From Firmicutes bacterium UBA6113 (GTDB taxonomy: Bacteria > Bacillota > Clostridia > Tissierellales > Sedimentibacteraceae), in contig DIWF01000024.1 in assembly GCA_002422545.1 (NCBI GenBank), positions 36,072-100,071 of the forward strand: a stretch of DNA of 64,000 nt, in the 5' to 3' direction. Made by a program: the position numbers. Of this stretch, positions 6,001 to 12,000 are shown piece after piece; position 1 is the first letter of the stretch; each line of letters starts with the position of its first letter.

Positions 6001-9000
6001 ACCTGAACAGTATTTAACGCCTGTATCTCCTAAATTCAGGTATCCGCTCCATGTCTTTGACTTAACAATTGGAGTACCGTCTGATTTTAAAGTTTCTACA
6101 AAAGTAGATCCATCCATTTTTCCATAGCTAATTAATATATTTCCTAGTTTATCTTGACTAAGATCTATTTCTTCGCTTAGTGAAAATCCTAATTCAATAC
6201 GAGGACTTCCTAAATTTGATGTAACGCTTGCTGAAGTATTAGAAAATGTTGTCGGTGTTGTATCATCTTGTTCTACAGCTTCAACTGTCAGGTTGTAATC
6301 TCCTGCTACACCAAACTTAACAGTTATAGACTTAGTTTCAGTGCCCCCACTTGTCAGTAATTCAGAATCAATGAAATGTTTAATAGCAGTAATTCCATTA
6401 ATTGAAATGTACTTATCACTAGTAACAACATATCCTATATTGCTTACCTCTTTATTTGCAGTAGCTTCAAATGATATTGTCTTACTTTCTCCTGTCAGTG
6501 CATTTCCAATTGCTAAATTGTCGCCTGAAATTGTACCTCCGGATACCCATTTAAGTGTGATTGCAGGAACGGCGGAAATGGTCTCTATGGCAGTTTTTAA
6601 ATAACCAAGTACAGTTACATATGAACCGCTGTATGCATTGTTCATGAACAAAGTACTAACTTTTTCTTCGTCAGCTGAGTTAAGAGCCTGATATGCATCA
6701 AAAATTGAGTTTTGTGCTATTATAGCATTATAACCATAATTAACTCCGTAGAAACTATTTATTTCTGTTTCTGTGAAATTATCCAAAAGTCCATCATTAT
6801 CCAGCTTCAAGTCTGCTACAATTTCTTCTAATGTTCTTGTTGTATTGCTGTTTAACAGCTGCAGAAGATTCATTTTGTTAGTTTCTATTTCTACACCCAG
6901 GTCAAATGCTGCCTGTACCTCTGCAACAGATGCAAAATTACCTTTTGCAAACTTAGTGAAGCTTACATAATCTGCAACTGCTTGGCGTCTTCCGCCAGCT
7001 GTAAGTTTATTATATTCTGTTAGATTTAAACCGAGTGCAGTATTTTCTAATGCAGCCTGCATTGCAAACCCTGGGTCATCCTCCACTTGAGTAATATTAA
7101 GAGCATTTACAGCTGCTAGTGCTTCTGCAGCCTGATTTGCAGTTACAGTTACTGTAGCTGTCAGCTTATTTGAAATTACTGTATAAGCCGCCGCAGATGT
7201 TCCCGATGACATTACCATCACAAAAACCAATACCAATGCTAATACTTTTGAAAATCTTGTTCTTACCACTTTTCTTTCCTCCGATTAATTTTTATTATTT
7301 GTTTAAAAACTAATTGGTAGCTAGGCTGCCTTTCCCCCGAAGGGCCCTATAGCTTTGCGTCCTTGTCTTGCGGCAAGTTTGCTCTTTTCAATTTTGTATC
7401 CCTTTACCCTTGCGCTCACCTCCATTTACCATCAAAGAAGATTTTAGATAATTGATACATCATTCTTTGATTACATAGACTGTGAGTTTATATTCACCTA
7501 GATTGTTGAAGGTTGCTGATGCAGAAATGTTTATACTTTCGCTGATGTTTAACCCTTCACCAATCCTGTAAATATCATTTATATTAAATATTTCATTATT
7601 TTCTGTATCTCTTATAGTGATATCACCACTGTTTATATATTTAAAATCTGTGCCCTCTTTTTTTTCCCACAACATAACCACTGTGACATCATCCATGGAA
7701 CTTACACCGTCAATCAAACTTAAATTGACGTTTATTATTTCTGTGTCACCTTCATAATTGTTTCCAGATGGATTTGTCCAATTTAACACCACAGGAGCAA
7801 CTGGTCCTCCTCCGCCGCCTCCTCCTGCTGCAGGAGGTATTATTTCAGGTTCTGAAATTCCAGGTGATACATCCATTTTCTCAGGTTCTTTTTCAAATGT
7901 TACTCCATTTGAATTTATTTGGGCATTTTCTATGGTGCCGTTTCCTGTAAATGAAATTTGCGAATTTATTATTGCAGATTGTATTGTTGCACCTTCCCCC
8001 AAGTAAATCGAGAATCCTTCCGGTGCTCCGTTAATTACCAGACTTTCGATTATGCCTGTCCTGATATTTAACCTTATAGTTGCATTGAAAGTGAGCTCAT
8101 TTATGTTGGCATTAATTGTAACAACATTGCTTGAATCTGCATTTTCATCTATTAAAACTTTATTGAAGCCAGTTCCGGTTAAGTCCTTCTGTTCTAACTT
8201 GACTCCTGATAAAATACTGGTCAAGTCTACTTCAGTACTGCCTTGAAGCAATATACGCAATTTCCCGTCTTCTTTATCAATAATCAATTTATTAATTGAG
8301 GAATCTTGTATTATAACTGATTTTTCGCCGCCGCCTTCAACAAGAAGCTCTCCAGTTATGTTGACATTTTTTAATGTTACTTCTCCACTGCCAACTTTTT
8401 TTGAAATATAAACATTTTCGTATGTTTTGTTTTCTATGATGGTTCCTGTTTCAGTGATAGTCAAATCATACTTCATTGTGTTGTCCATTCTGTCAAGCAA
8501 TACTACAGCTTCTGCTCTAGTTATGGGATTTTGAGGTCTGAATGTTCTATCTTCACTGTACCCTATCAATAATTGCGCATTAGCTGCAGCATTCACATAT
8601 TCTTTAGCCCAGTCAGAAATTTGACTGCTGTCGGCGAATTCTTGTACACTTTCCGAATTATTTTCTAATCCCTGTATTTTTGCTACTATAACTGCAGCTT
8701 GCTCCCTGGTAAGGTAATCATTAGGAGCAAATATTTTTTCTGAAATACCTTTTATATAACCTGCTGCCAGTGATTTTTGAACTTCTTCATAATACCATTC
8801 ATTTTGATTTACATCTTCAAAACTGATTTCAGTAACCTTAGTATATCCAAACAAATTGTTTACCAACTTCACGAATTCAGCTCTGGTAACTTGTCCTTCC
8901 GGTCTGAATGAACCATCAGGATACCCATTTATATAACCTTTATCTACCCACCCTTTTATTGTGTTTTCTGCCCAATGACCTTCATAATCCTTGCTTTTTC

Positions 9001-12000
9001 CATACACTGCAATAGGTATTGCTGCAAAGATCATTGCAAATAACAACAAAAATAATATCGTTTTCTTATGCATAGTATTCCCCCATAAAGTTTTTAGTCT
9101 ATATTAAACTTTTAAAAAGTGAGATAAGAAATTAAAAAACCGCTAAAGATTCTTTAGCGGCCGAACCATCGTAATATGATTGCTCATATTTTAGACTTCA
9201 TGCTTTGCGTCCTATTTTTTCAAATAGTTTGCTTTTTTTAATCAAATTAATATTTTTGTTAAAAAACATCAGACTCATACTGATATTATTGTTAGGTAAC
9301 ATTTTTTATTTCCATTAACATTATATCATCTTTAACACTGCTTTAAAGCCATAAAAAGCTCAAATTTCCGACTGTTCTAAACTTTTTATGCCTTTTTTCG
9401 GCATTTTTCGTCACACTTTACGTGCTGGAGAATATGATACGAATGAGCTTGACTCAAATTTATATATAAAGGTGTTTTTATCAATGGGTAGACCAAATAA
9501 TGGAAACGCAGCCGGAAATACCGGCAGAAAAAAATGCAACAATGGTAATGTAGGCGGCGAAACAGGATTAAGAAGATGCGACTGCGAATGTGTTTATGAA
9601 TGCTTGTTTGAATTGTTAGCTGAAGCTGTAGAAGACAAAAAAAGATGCTCACATCCTTGTCATGAAAGACCCGGAGTTGTTAGCCCTGGCGGAGGAAACA
9701 AAAACAGATGCGAATGTGTTTATGAATGTTTGTTTGAATTGTTAGCTGAAGCCGTAGAAGACAAAAAAGGATGCTGGCATCCTTGTCATGAAAAACCCGG
9801 AGTTGTTAGCCCCGGCGGAGGAAGCAAAAACAGATGCGAATGTGTTTTTGAATGCTTGCTTGCTCTGTTAAGAGAAGCATTAGATTAATTTTATGTATGT
9901 TTTGAGACACCTTTGGGTGTCTCTTTTGGATTACAAGATAATCTCTACCATGTAATGAATGACCACGGGAGGGCACGAGACCCTCCCCTACGGATTGATG
10001 AGCAAATGTTCCGTTTTTGTTGAAATATGAATTCGGGCGGACACGAGATCCGCCCCTACAGTTTGATAAAGTTAAATATTCTGTTTCTGCAAGAATTTTT
10101 CAAGTTCTTCTGCAAACAACGGCTTGCTGTAGTAGAATCCCTGTATATAATCGCAGTCCGCAGATTTTAATGCCTCAACTTGAGAGATAGTTTCCACTCC
10201 TTCTGCCACAACCTTCATGCCAAACATGTGACATGACTTTATCATGCATTTTATTATTGCAAAATTTTTCTCATTTGAAATCTTGTCTATGAGCAATTTT
10301 TCAATTTTCATGTAGTCAAATATTTCCCCGTATTCCATAAGGTATTTTGCTGAGTTGAAACCAGAGCCGTAATCATCCAGAGACATCTTAATTCCCATTT
10401 CCTTCAATTTTCTCAATTGCTCATGGGCATTTTTCTCATCTAGTATGATTATTCTTTCAGTAAGTTCAAACTCCAGATTATTAGGATTTACATCGTATTC
10501 ATCTAAACATTCTTTGACATAGTCCACAAATGTATCATCGGATAATTCCTTAGCCGAAAGATTTATAGAAACAGGCATGATTATGCCCTTTTCATTCCAT
10601 TCCTTCATCTGCATGGCAGCGTTTTTTATAACCCATCTTGTTATTTGGTTTATGAAACCGGCATCCTCAGCTCTTCTTATGAGTTCGGAAATTGACATGC
10701 TTTTCTTGTCCTTGCCCTTCCACCTTAAAAGTGCTTCCACTCCAATAACTGAATTATTTTCCACATCTATTTTTGGCTGGTATGATAATGTGAACATGTC
10801 ATTTTGCAGAGAATGGTACAATGAAACAAGACCGCTGTAATACTTCTCCTGCTCTATTTCAATAATATCATCATAAATAACAACTTCACTGTGGCACCTC
10901 AAACATTGCTCAATAGCCTTGTCAAGCTTTTCAATCAGCCTGTCCCCGTCGGTTTCATGTTTTGGATAATTTATTACAGCTCCCTTCACCACTATTGATA
11001 CGGGAAAGTTTTCTATGTAGACAGGACTTTTCGTTGTGACAATGAAATTCTTGGCTGATTTAGCTGTTTCACATGCATCCCATTCAGGAAGTATGACAGT
11101 AATTTTATCGTTGGATACAGCATAAATTGTTCCGTTTGCGAAATATTTTTCAGTTTTTTTCAACAGTTCAATAAAAGATTTCTGACTTGTTTCTATGTCA
11201 ACGTAACGCTTGATCATATCAATATTCTGAAATTCAAACAAGATCACCGATATATACTGGTGTTTGCCGCTTGATGTCATAGTGCACAAATCAAGCTTGA
11301 ACTTGTTGAAGTTATAATATCCGGTCCTCAAATCCTCATAAGCTTTTCTTTTTTCGAGTTCTTCTGTTTTTTTAATCTGTTCAATCAGTGATCCCACAAA
11401 TACAACTATGACAATGAATATGCCAATCCTGAACAACCACATGGCAGGTGGCTGCATAATATTGTTTGCAGAATTAAAAGGCAAATAAGGCCCTACTGCC
11501 AGGCCTGCAACAACAGCGGTGATGATTCCTCCCTTGATGCCGAAAACCAAGACAGAAAAAAATAACGGTATATATAAAAGGTGAAGGGATGAATTGCTTC
11601 CTCCCGTCATGTATGCTATCAAAGTTGTTAAGAAAATAGAAAATATAATAAAAACAATGCTCAGTGGATAATTATATGTGTCCTTACCCAAGTCAGCAAC
11701 TAACACTTGTAGTCTTTTATTCATAATTGCTCCTAAATTTTATTGCGTTTTATATTATTCGGGCACATCATGGAAAAAACAGGGTGAAAAAATTAATTAA
11801 ATTATTTGACGAAATCGTATTCACAAGAACTACCAATGTTTTCAACAAGCAATACAAATATTTTATATTATTGCAGCAATTTTAGCAAGAGTATAATAAT
11901 AAAATGAAAATTTAATTATGCAAACATCAAGAATATTAATAGTTGCAGATTTTGTGCCAAACATTAATCATTTCTGATTTTTATTGCAAAGTTTACATTT

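What the first reader, a model, noticed from the sequence alone, without database searches (positions are those of the whole stretch)
7314..9242. Both GEMM-I riboswitches carry A20, the cGAMP-compatible variant
Seen: in both aptamers the base before GCAAA is A (complements of positions 7383 and 9233), and the C92-equivalent (TAC-C, CG-C-T) is retained. Known: in Vibrio Vc2, G20 and C92 read c-di-GMP. A20 marks the Geobacter GEMM-Ib class selective for 3',3'-cGAMP, while some clostridial A20 aptamers bind both ligands. Inference: this surface/glycosylation locus may respond to 3',3'-cGAMP, or to both signals, in a Firmicute.
Basis: partly seen in the sequence, partly recalled or inferred. Interest (0 to 1): 0.7.

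Follow-up and report, generated by a model that had tools for sequence, protein, structure and literature searches.

The report
Two A20-variant c-di-GMP-I riboswitches, Sedimentibacter
Two real cyclic-dinucleotide riboswitches in front of cell-surface protein genes of a Sedimentibacter bacterium both carry an uncommon A at a ligand-contacting base, but the comparative evidence says they most likely still sense ordinary c-di-GMP, not cGAMP.

Summary
Two full-length GEMM-I (RF01051) aptamers lie on the minus strand at 9243..9153 and 7393..7313. Both have A at the Vc2-G20 position (9233, 7383) and keep A47 and C92.

A20 is a minority state: 6 of 122 GEMM-I hits in a pattern-conditioned metagenome sample. 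It recurs in four related species, so it is not a sequencing error.

The organism is a Sedimentibacter (Bacillota, Tissierellia), about 90% identical to S. saalensis in the neighbouring EAL protein.

The cGAMP inference is only weakly supported.
- Orthologous switches at the same two gene positions in more distant relatives carry canonical G20.
- The locus sits beside an apparently competent EAL phosphodiesterase.
- In S. acidaminivorans the equivalent locus sits beside a canonical GGDEF (Asp, not the Hypr Ser) and a canonical RxxR HD-GYP.
- The only characterised clostridial A20 aptamer, Cbe 1-2, binds c-di-GMP about 15-fold tighter than cGAMP.

Both switches are predicted to be ON switches. 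Aptamer 1 competes with an overlapping intrinsic terminator. Aptamer 2 competes with a conserved hairpin that hides the Shine-Dalgarno sequence.

Most likely reading: c-di-GMP turns on SLH and other surface-protein genes, and A20 tunes affinity or permits cGAMP binding in vitro.

This is a new member of a known kind. A whole-genome search for a cGAMP synthase could not be done.

The parts
10072..11724 (-). Membrane protein, 550 aa, with a degenerate GGDEF-like middle region and a C-terminal EAL domain (c-di-GMP phosphodiesterase type). It lies immediately upstream of the riboswitch locus.
   Evidence: Pfam EAL 1.3e-62 over the full profile. The motifs EALLRW, ELTE, DDYGSG, KIEK, EGVE and QGF are present. 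Best PDB relatives are c-di-GMP phosphodiesterases. It is 90% identical to the S. saalensis protein.
9320..9347 (-). Promoter-like site (TTTAAA, 16 nt, TG-TATAAT) about 75 nt upstream of aptamer 1.
   Evidence: Consensus scan, 10 of 12 matches with an extended -10 TG. This is a pattern match only. The -10 region is conserved in L005.
9153..9243 (-). Aptamer 1: GEMM-I / c-di-GMP-I aptamer with A20 = 9233, A47 = 9206, C92 = 9157.
   Evidence: RF01051 64.3 bits, E 2.8e-10, model positions 1-87. Identical core sequence in L005, L009 and L136. The L007 ortholog has G20 and covarying stems.
9131..9162 (-). Intrinsic terminator: an 11-bp stem GGCCGCUAAAG/CUUUAGCGGUU followed by a U-tract. Its 5' arm is the 3' end of aptamer 1 (closing pairs of the second hairpin, C92 and the P1 3' strand).
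   Evidence: Terminator scan. Hairpin energy -14.1 kcal/mol, z -4.2. It forms in the ligand-free MFE fold. It is conserved in L005 and L009 with a loop change and an indel.
7460..9073 (-). Secreted SLH-domain surface protein, 537 aa: signal peptide, three SLH repeats and a C-terminal region without a known family.
   Evidence: Pfam SLH 3.8e-37, three stretches. Orthologs are 80-83% identical in Sedimentibacter-type contigs.
7313..7393 (-). Aptamer 2: GEMM-I aptamer with a short second hairpin, lying between two genes. A20 = 7383 (preceded by G at 7384), A47 = 7356, C92 = 7317. P1 is AAUUG (7392-7388) paired with CAAUU (7316-7312).
   Evidence: RF01051 62.0 bits. It also scores 59.0 bits on RF03167, equal to that family's gathering score, but without its G47 signature. 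Orthologs in L007 and S. acidaminivorans have G20. Covariation in the first hairpin.
7278..7320 (-). AU-rich hairpin that pairs C92 and the P1 3' strand (CU.CC.AAUUAGUUUUU) with AAAAAUUAAU.CGGAG. This covers the Shine-Dalgarno sequence GGAGG (7282-7278), which lies ahead of the GTG start at 7269.
   Evidence: Energy -8.2 kcal/mol, z -3.5. The L007 equivalent is -13 kcal/mol, has a different loop and a G.U to G-C change, and again pairs GGAG.
5800..7269 (-). Secreted 489-aa protein of a very narrow family with no Pfam domain. It is the gene directly controlled by aptamer 2.
   Evidence: No Pfam hit. Only 3 homolog clusters (62-69% identity) among 5.8 billion proteins, all in syntenic loci. The N-terminal signal peptide is read from the sequence.
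616..5520 (-). Downstream glycan genes: Wzy_C/O-antigen-ligase-like (5520..3682), Polysacc_synt_2 dehydratase (3669..1777) and PIG-L deacetylase (1296..616). They may belong to the same transcription unit.
   Evidence: Pfam. Synteny is conserved in L005, L009 and L136. Co-transcription is inferred, not shown.

Best explanation
These are two genuine GEMM-I riboswitches of a Sedimentibacter species. Physiologically they most likely sense c-di-GMP and switch surface-protein genes ON.

Aptamer 1 controls transcription. Without ligand, the 3' end of the aptamer (closing pairs of the second hairpin, C92 and the P1 3' strand) folds into an 11-bp intrinsic terminator. Ligand binding locks that segment into the aptamer, and RNA polymerase reads through into the SLH-protein gene.

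Aptamer 2 sits between the SLH gene and the next surface-protein gene and controls translation. Without ligand, C92 and the P1 3' strand pair with the Shine-Dalgarno region. Ligand-stabilised P1 frees the ribosome-binding site.

The A at position 20 is a derived substitution of an ancestral G20. It probably lowers c-di-GMP affinity into the nanomolar range, which would act as threshold tuning. As a side effect it makes the pocket able to accept 3',3'-cGAMP in vitro, without cGAMP being the natural signal.

Shown here: aptamer identity, the bases at positions 20, 47 and 92, the overlap with terminator and sequestering hairpin, the G20 orthologs, and the neighbouring c-di-GMP enzymes. Inferred: ligand identity, ON polarity, and the tuning role.
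For: Aptamers: RF01051 hits at 64.3 and 62.0 bits against a gathering score of 35. Across 13 Sedimentibacter aptamers, 90% of cells pair, 7 of 12 pairs change on both sides, and 0 of 500 shuffles reach the observed covariation score.

ON logic: the terminator at 9162..9138 overlaps the aptamer's 3' end (-14.1 kcal/mol). This is the mutually exclusive aptamer/terminator layout described for the pilM ON-switch (PMC9262584). The hairpin that hides the Shine-Dalgarno sequence is conserved with compensatory change in L007.

c-di-GMP as ligand:
- Both L007 switches, at the same two gene slots, have G20. The aptamer-2 ortholog in S. acidaminivorans also has G20.
- An EAL protein with intact catalytic motifs is encoded next door.
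- In S. acidaminivorans the equivalent locus is flanked by a GGDEF with NDTWGHAKGD + GGDEF, i.e. the canonical Asp where Hypr enzymes have Ser (rule from PMC6456294). [quoted passage not shown]
- A20 pockets bind c-di-GMP tightly through a protonated adenine. The clostridial A20 aptamer Cbe 1-2 prefers c-di-GMP, 30 nM against 463 nM (PMC6140456).
- There is no GGDEF or CD-NTase in the window.
Against: - A20 is rare in my sample (about 5%), yet both switches of this operon carry it.
- Both G-to-A changes separate the same two lineages. This looks concerted and could reflect a change in the ligand pool.
- Position 20 is unusually variable in the genus. S. saalensis has a U20 aptamer and S. acidaminivorans has both a G20 and an A20 aptamer within 6 kb, reminiscent of Geobacter genomes that use two signals.
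- A and U can both read the Hoogsteen face of adenine (my inference).
- Candidate cGAMP-specific HD-GYPs are reported to be common in Firmicutes.
- No binding data exist, and no whole-genome enzyme census could be done.
- ON polarity rests on folding predictions only.
Confidence: 0.6

Rival explanations
1. Dual-input switches. Sedimentibacter makes both c-di-GMP and 3',3'-cGAMP, and the A20 aptamers respond physiologically to either signal. This would integrate two signals at the surface-protein operon.
For: A20 pockets are bispecific in every tested case outside Geobacter: Vc2 G20A at 53 and 120 nM, and Cbe 1-2 at 30 and 463 nM (PMC6140456). Both switches acquired A20 in parallel in one clade. 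G20 and A20 aptamers coexist in S. acidaminivorans. Rxx(Q/N) HD-GYP candidates are widespread in Firmicutes.
Against: No cGAMP synthase has been seen. The one GGDEF and the one HD-GYP that could be inspected in the genus are canonical. The EAL neighbour points to c-di-GMP. Bispecific binding in vitro does not show that the second ligand exists in the cell.
Confidence: 0.17
2. True GEMM-Ib-like cGAMP-selective riboswitches. The window clade switched this regulon from c-di-GMP to 3',3'-cGAMP, as Geobacter did.
For: A20 with C92 retained, which is the defining pocket change of GEMM-Ib. In Gm0970 an A20G change alone flips selectivity (PMC6456294). Aptamer 1 has the same ON-switch architecture as Geobacter pilM. 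Both switches changed from G to A together. S. saalensis has a U20 variant that could also read adenine (my inference).
Against: Selectivity needs more than A20 (lower P2 and P1). The only Firmicute A20 aptamer measured prefers c-di-GMP. GEMM-Ib is described from Geobacter and related Deltaproteobacteria together with Hypr GGDEFs, and none is in evidence here. Neighbouring enzymes are of the c-di-GMP type. Apart from position 20 the aptamer cores are close to the ordinary RF01051 consensus.
Confidence: 0.08
3. Decaying or ligand-independent elements. The G20A change marks relaxed constraint, and the RNAs no longer act as ligand-dependent switches.
For: Aptamer 1 has two non-standard pairs (A.C and A.G) at the base of the second hairpin. 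Aptamer 2 has one mismatch in the first hairpin and a very short second hairpin.
Against: Both aptamer cores are nearly invariant across four species whose downstream proteins are only 59-69% identical (489-aa family) and 68-84% identical (SLH protein). This indicates strong purifying selection. Both score well above the gathering score. The expression platforms are conserved.
Confidence: 0.05

Closest known systems
Clostridium beijerinckii Cbe 1-2 aptamer (natural A20 GEMM-I from a Firmicute; Nelson 2015, measured in Keller 2018, PMC6140456)
   Same: A Firmicute GEMM-I aptamer with A at position 20 and C92 retained. It binds both dinucleotides, and binds c-di-GMP through a protonated adenine.
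   Different: Cbe 1-2 has measured affinities (30 nM c-di-GMP, 463 nM cGAMP), whereas nothing has been measured here. I could not obtain its sequence or gene context, so similarity beyond the pocket is untested.
Vibrio cholerae Vc2 c-di-GMP-I riboswitch and its G20A mutant
   Same: The same fold and the same pocket positions (20, 47, 92). The G20A mutant reproduces the pocket seen here and is bispecific (53 and 120 nM).
   Different: Wild-type Vc2 has G20 and picomolar c-di-GMP affinity. It is proteobacterial and has a different expression platform.
Geobacter GEMM-Ib cGAMP riboswitches (Gs1761/pgcA, Gm0970, pilM)
   Same: A20 with C92. A transcriptional ON-switch in which aptamer and terminator are mutually exclusive (pilM). 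Control of extracellular and surface functions. Several switches per genome, sometimes two per operon.
   Different: They are cGAMP-selective by about 1200-1600-fold. They occur in Deltaproteobacteria that encode Hypr GGDEF synthases and control exoelectrogenesis genes. Here the host is a Bacillota anaerobe, the orthologs carry G20, and only canonical c-di-GMP enzymes are seen.
c-di-GMP riboswitches that control surface proteins in Bacillota, e.g. Bacillus thuringiensis cbpA (PMC7423583; title and abstract seen), and Clostridioides difficile adhesin and pilin switches (own knowledge)
   Same: A c-di-GMP riboswitch upstream of genes for cell-wall-anchored surface proteins in a Gram-positive organism.
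   Different: As far as I know those examples carry canonical G20 (or are class II). Here the targets are an SLH-anchored protein and an ORFan surface protein with S-layer-type glycosylation genes, and there are two switches in series.
c-di-GMP-I-GGC variant (RF03167)
   Same: Aptamer 2 scores 59.0 bits on this model, equal to its gathering score. It shares the short second hairpin.
   Different: The variant's consensus reads GACGCGAA, with G at position 47 and G at position 20. Aptamer 2 has A at both, so it is not a GGC variant.

Membership tests
GEMM-I / c-di-GMP-I riboswitch (RF01051) | Covariance-model score at or above Rfam's gathering score, matched over the full length | tested here: met
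   64.3 and 62.0 bits against a gathering score of 35, model positions 1-87 for both.
GEMM-I / c-di-GMP-I riboswitch (RF01051) | Two-hairpin architecture supported by covariation | tested here: met
   13 Sedimentibacter aptamers: 90.4% of cells paired, all 6 pairs of the first hairpin change on both sides, and 0 of 500 shuffles reach the observed score.
GEMM-I / c-di-GMP-I riboswitch (RF01051) | Ligand-contacting bases G20, A47 and C92 | tested here: inconclusive
   A47 and C92 are present in both aptamers. Position 20 is A, not G. A20 is a known natural minority state within the family: 6 of 122 in my sample.
GEMM-I / c-di-GMP-I riboswitch (RF01051) | Expression platform that competes with the aptamer's 3' strand | tested here: met
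   A terminator overlaps aptamer 1. A hairpin that hides the Shine-Dalgarno sequence overlaps aptamer 2 and is conserved in L007. These are predictions, not assays.
GEMM-I / c-di-GMP-I riboswitch (RF01051) | Binds c-di-GMP | not testable with these tools
   Needs in-line probing, ITC or gel shift.
GEMM-Ib (3',3'-cGAMP riboswitch subclass) | A at position 20 with C92 retained | tested here: met
   Positions 9233/9157 and 7383/7317.
GEMM-Ib (3',3'-cGAMP riboswitch subclass) | Selective binding of 3',3'-cGAMP over c-di-GMP | not testable with these tools
   A20 alone gives bispecific binding (Vc2 G20A), or even a preference for c-di-GMP (Cbe 1-2) (PMC6140456).
GEMM-Ib (3',3'-cGAMP riboswitch subclass) | Host encodes a cGAMP synthase (Hypr GGDEF or DncV/CD-NTase) | tested here: inconclusive
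   None in the 64 kb window. The one Sedimentibacter GGDEF inspected is canonical, with Asp. Whole genomes could not be searched.
GEMM-Ib (3',3'-cGAMP riboswitch subclass) | A20 conserved among orthologous switches of the regulon | tested here: not met
   Orthologs in L007 (both slots) and in S. acidaminivorans (slot 2) have G20.
c-di-GMP-I-GGC variant (RF03167) | Variant pocket signature: G20, G47 (GACGCGAA), C92 | tested here: not met
   Aptamer 2 scores 59.0 bits, equal to the gathering score, but reads A20 and A47 (GACGCAAA).

The most novel reading that the evidence does not exclude
Sedimentibacter, a Bacillota anaerobe, runs a 3',3'-cGAMP (or dual cGAMP/c-di-GMP) riboswitch regulon. One clade would have converted both switches of an S-layer and surface-protein operon from G20 to A20 in parallel. 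Relatives carry U20 and A20 variants that also read adenine. This would be the first cGAMP-riboswitch signalling outside the Geobacter and deltaproteobacterial Hypr pathway, and it would control cell-surface remodelling.
Probability: 0.12. Interest if true: 0.7.

Novelty: new member of a known kind. Interest (0 to 1): 0.35.

Why it matters
If the ordinary reading is right, this is one more c-di-GMP riboswitch locus. It shows that surface-layer proteins and their glycosylation genes in an environmental anaerobe from hydrocarbon-degrading consortia are switched on by c-di-GMP. It also shows that A20 should not be read as a cGAMP marker outside Geobacter.

The useful by-product is a natural experiment. 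Orthologous switches within one genus carry G, A or U at the specificity position. This gives matched RNA pairs for testing what, beyond position 20, sets cyclic-dinucleotide selectivity or affinity thresholds.

If the novel reading were right, cGAMP riboswitch signalling would extend to Firmicutes.

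Tried and rejected
- GGC-variant reading of aptamer 2. RF03167 scores 59.0 bits, equal to its gathering score. I rejected it because the signature G47 and G20 are both A here.
- Primary papers on A20 statistics and selectivity (Kellenberger 2015, Nelson 2015, Ren 2015, Smith 2010). None is held in the library. I therefore measured the A20 frequency myself and took affinities from Keller 2018.
- An ad hoc Python parser for C92 gave wrong answers on known cases. I replaced it with a covariance model, R1.
- A MAFFT alignment that included the S. saalensis aptamer misaligned its 3' half, so I dropped that sequence from the model seed.
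- RNA-seq evidence for termination or read-through: only DNA metagenome runs hold this sequence.
- SLH paralog loci L133-L135 carry no GEMM-I.
- S. saalensis lacks the SLH + 489-aa module downstream of its EAL gene, so it gave no ortholog of either switch.
- I ran no further search on sampling GGDEF proteins for Hypr signatures. A negative result from about 120 hits would not be informative.
- c-di-AMP as ligand: rejected, because C92 is retained.

Full report
**What is there**

Rfam cmscan of the whole window at gathering threshold returns only two hits, both c-di-GMP-I (RF01051), full length, on the minus strand. They lie at 9243..9153 (64.3 bits) and 7393..7313 (62.0 bits); the gathering score is 35. 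In both alignments the unpaired base 5' of the G-C pair of 'GGCAAA' is A. This is model position 11, i.e. Vc2 G20. A47 (9206, 7356) and the C92 equivalent (9157, 7317) are retained.

With laxer filters aptamer 2 is assigned to the c-di-GMP-I-GGC variant (RF03167) at 59.0 bits, equal to that family's gathering score. That model's consensus reads G20 and GACGCGAA (G47), whereas aptamer 2 reads A at both. The hit reflects the short second hairpin, not the variant pocket. That alignment is still useful: it annotates P1 and places C92 directly 5' of the P1 3' strand.

**Context and host**

On the minus strand the order is as follows.

| Element | Coordinates |
|---|---|
| EAL-domain membrane protein | 11724..10072 |
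| Promoter-like site | 9347..9320 |
| Aptamer 1 | 9243..9153 |
| Terminator | 9162..9131 |
| SLH surface protein, 537 aa | 9073..7460 |
| Aptamer 2 | 7393..7313 |
| Secreted 489-aa protein, no known family | 7269..5800 |
| Wzy_C-type protein | 5520..3682 |
| Polysacc_synt_2 | 3669..1777 |
| PIG-L | 1296..616 |

A 166-aa ORF of unknown function lies on the opposite strand between the EAL gene and the promoter-like site. The rest of the window is chromosomal housekeeping (DnaE, PFK, pyruvate kinase, HisRS and others). It has no GGDEF and no CD-NTase.

The same sequence occurs in four independent metagenome assemblies, among them a toluene-degrading methanogenic culture. The EAL protein is 90% identical to that of Sedimentibacter saalensis DSM 13558, which belongs to Bacillota, Tissierellia.

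**Expression platforms**

The 5' arm of an 11-bp terminator (GGCCGCUAAAG/CUUUAGCGGUU plus a U-tract; -14.1 kcal/mol, z -4.2) is the 3' end of aptamer 1. It includes C92 and the P1 3' strand. Aptamer and terminator are therefore mutually exclusive. This is the layout described for the Geobacter pilM ON-switch (PMC9262584). I predict that ligand gives read-through.

Aptamer 2 has no terminator. Instead, C92 and the P1 3' strand pair with the Shine-Dalgarno GGAG in an AU-rich hairpin (-8.2 kcal/mol, z -3.5). The L007 relative keeps this hairpin with a different loop and a G.U to G-C change (-13 kcal/mol). I predict that ligand gives translation ON. Both polarities are inferences from folding.

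**Comparative test of the A20 reading**

The 489-aa protein has only three homolog clusters among 5.8 billion proteins, and all lie in syntenic loci. SLH-protein homologs brought in further Sedimentibacter loci.

| Locus | Slot 1 (before the SLH gene) | Slot 2 (before the second surface-protein gene) |
|---|---|---|
| Window, L005, L009, L136 | A20 | A20 |
| L007 | G20 | G20 |
| S. acidaminivorans (L132) | no aptamer found | G20 |

- **Close relatives.** The window, L005, L009 and L136 have nearly identical aptamer cores. Between the window and L009, Wzy and Polysacc_synt_2 are 87-90% identical (70-74% against L005). The EAL protein is 88-90% identical among the window, L005 and S. saalensis. 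The surface proteins themselves are only 59-84% identical. The aptamers are therefore under strong constraint.
- **L007.** This is a more distant relative; its SLH protein is 25-32% identical. Its stems covary with those of the window.
- **S. acidaminivorans.** The slot-2 ortholog lies between its SLH gene and a beta-helix protein gene.

So G20 is the state in both outgroups, and A20 is derived in the window clade, at both switches. Across the 13 Sedimentibacter aptamers the structure is well supported by covariation.

**How unusual is A20?**

I scanned metagenome contigs with a pattern that leaves position 20 free. I realigned the hits with a covariance model built here. This gave 133 GEMM-I hits, of which 122 had position 20 aligned: G 115, A 6, U 1. 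C92 was C in 127.

A20 is thus a minority state, about 5% in this pattern-conditioned and non-random sample. Two A20 switches in one operon are not what independent draws would give. However, only two substitution events in one lineage are involved.

**What the literature allows**

- G20 reads the Hoogsteen face of G-alpha, and C92 pairs with G-beta.
- GEMM-Ib aptamers replace G20 by A.
- Vc2 G20A is bispecific: 53 nM c-di-GMP and 120 nM cGAMP.
- c-di-GMP binds A20 pockets through a stably protonated adenine.
- The natural clostridial A20 aptamer Cbe 1-2 binds c-di-GMP at 30 nM and cGAMP at 463 nM (all of the above from PMC6140456).
- In Gm0970 an A20G change flips selectivity (PMC6456294).
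- Mutations in the lower P2 and P1 stability also affect selectivity.

Hence A20 predicts that cGAMP can bind, not that cGAMP is the signal.

**Enzymes**

- The neighbouring EAL protein keeps the EAL, ELTE, DDYGSG, KIEK, EGVE and QGF motifs. Its closest solved relatives are c-di-GMP phosphodiesterases.
- In S. acidaminivorans a GGDEF protein sits directly upstream of the SLH gene. It reads NDTWGHAKGD ... GGDEF, with the canonical Asp where Hypr cGAMP synthases have Ser (rule).
- An HD-GYP protein two genes downstream of another GEMM-I in that locus reads RSYR. [quoted passage not shown]

Everything that can be seen is c-di-GMP machinery. I could not search whole genomes.

**Points that keep the novel reading alive**

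- Position 20 is strikingly variable in this genus. S. saalensis has a U20/A47/C92 aptamer (71 bits). S. acidaminivorans has a G20 and an A20 aptamer 6 kb apart.
- Both A and U could read the adenine Hoogsteen face (my inference).
- In aptamer 2 the change is a dinucleotide swap, AAAAG-A against AAAAA-G, which leaves a G at position 19. Its meaning is unknown.
- Candidate cGAMP phosphodiesterases are reported to be frequent in Firmicutes.

**Verdict**

| Reading | Confidence |
|---|---|
| Two c-di-GMP ON-switches (one transcriptional, one translational) controlling SLH and other surface-protein genes, with a derived A20 that probably tunes affinity | 0.6 |
| Dual input (c-di-GMP and cGAMP) | 0.17 |
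| True cGAMP selectivity | 0.08 |
| Decay or ligand independence | 0.05 |

This is a new member of a known kind, of modest interest. Its value lies mainly in the natural G/A/U series at the specificity position among orthologous switches.

Noticed in passing
L010:3172-3259 (Sedimentibacter saalensis DSM 13558, NZ_VLKH01000006.1): A full-length GEMM-I aptamer (RF01051, 71 bits) with U at position 20 and with A47 and C92 retained. It lies upstream of a 341-aa ORF, between the lipase and homoserine-dehydrogenase genes. This insertion is absent from the window. U20/C92 matches neither the G20 parent nor the UAU variant by name.
   Followed up: partly
L132:17010-17091 and 17147-18655 (S. acidaminivorans, JAGGKS010000001.1): An A20 GEMM-I aptamer lies 6 kb from a G20 one in the same genome. 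It sits upstream of a 165-aa secreted coiled-coil ORF and an HD-GYP protein with the canonical RSYR motif. This could be a riboswitch-controlled phosphodiesterase, i.e. a feedback loop.
   Followed up: partly
window 7383-7384 (minus strand), compared with L007:2842-2928 and L132:11375-11465: In aptamer 2 the A20 clade reads ..AAAAG-A-GC.. where the G20 orthologs read ..AAAAA-G-GC... This is a GA/AG dinucleotide swap that leaves a G at position 19. Whether G19 can substitute in ligand recognition is unknown.
   Followed up: no
window 5800-7269; L136:3110-4750; L132:11510-13249: The gene slot behind aptamer 2 holds an ORFan 489-aa secreted protein (4 clusters among 5.8 billion proteins) in some Sedimentibacter lineages. 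In others it holds an unrelated Pectate_lyase_5/beta-helix protein behind the same aptamer. This looks like cassette-type replacement of a riboswitch-controlled surface protein.
   Followed up: partly
window 7312-7392: With permissive filters cmscan assigns aptamer 2 to RF03167 (c-di-GMP-I-GGC) at a score equal to that family's gathering score, although the defining G47 and G20 are absent. This is an annotation trap for short-hairpin GEMM-I aptamers.
   Followed up: yes
L004:3710-5328 (JGI 3300001567 contig): In one otherwise identical assembly the SLH gene is called as two pieces (325 and 137 aa) instead of 537 aa. The genes downstream of the 489-aa gene also differ in called length and annotation (594 aa Wzy_C and a 611-aa product without Pfam hits, against 612 and 630 aa). 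This could be strain-level disruption or an assembly difference.
   Followed up: no
window 9388-9888 (+): A 166-aa ORF without any Pfam family is transcribed divergently from the aptamer-1 promoter region and converges on the EAL gene, with a bidirectional terminator-like hairpin at 9904-9923. Shorter ORFs (94-107 aa) occupy the same place in L005, L009 and L136.
   Followed up: no
window 28712-29227 and 35959-39477: An IS200-like transposase, and an Eco57I/MmeI-type restriction-modification methyltransferase immediately followed by a second SLH-domain protein (542 aa) that has no riboswitch.
   Followed up: no
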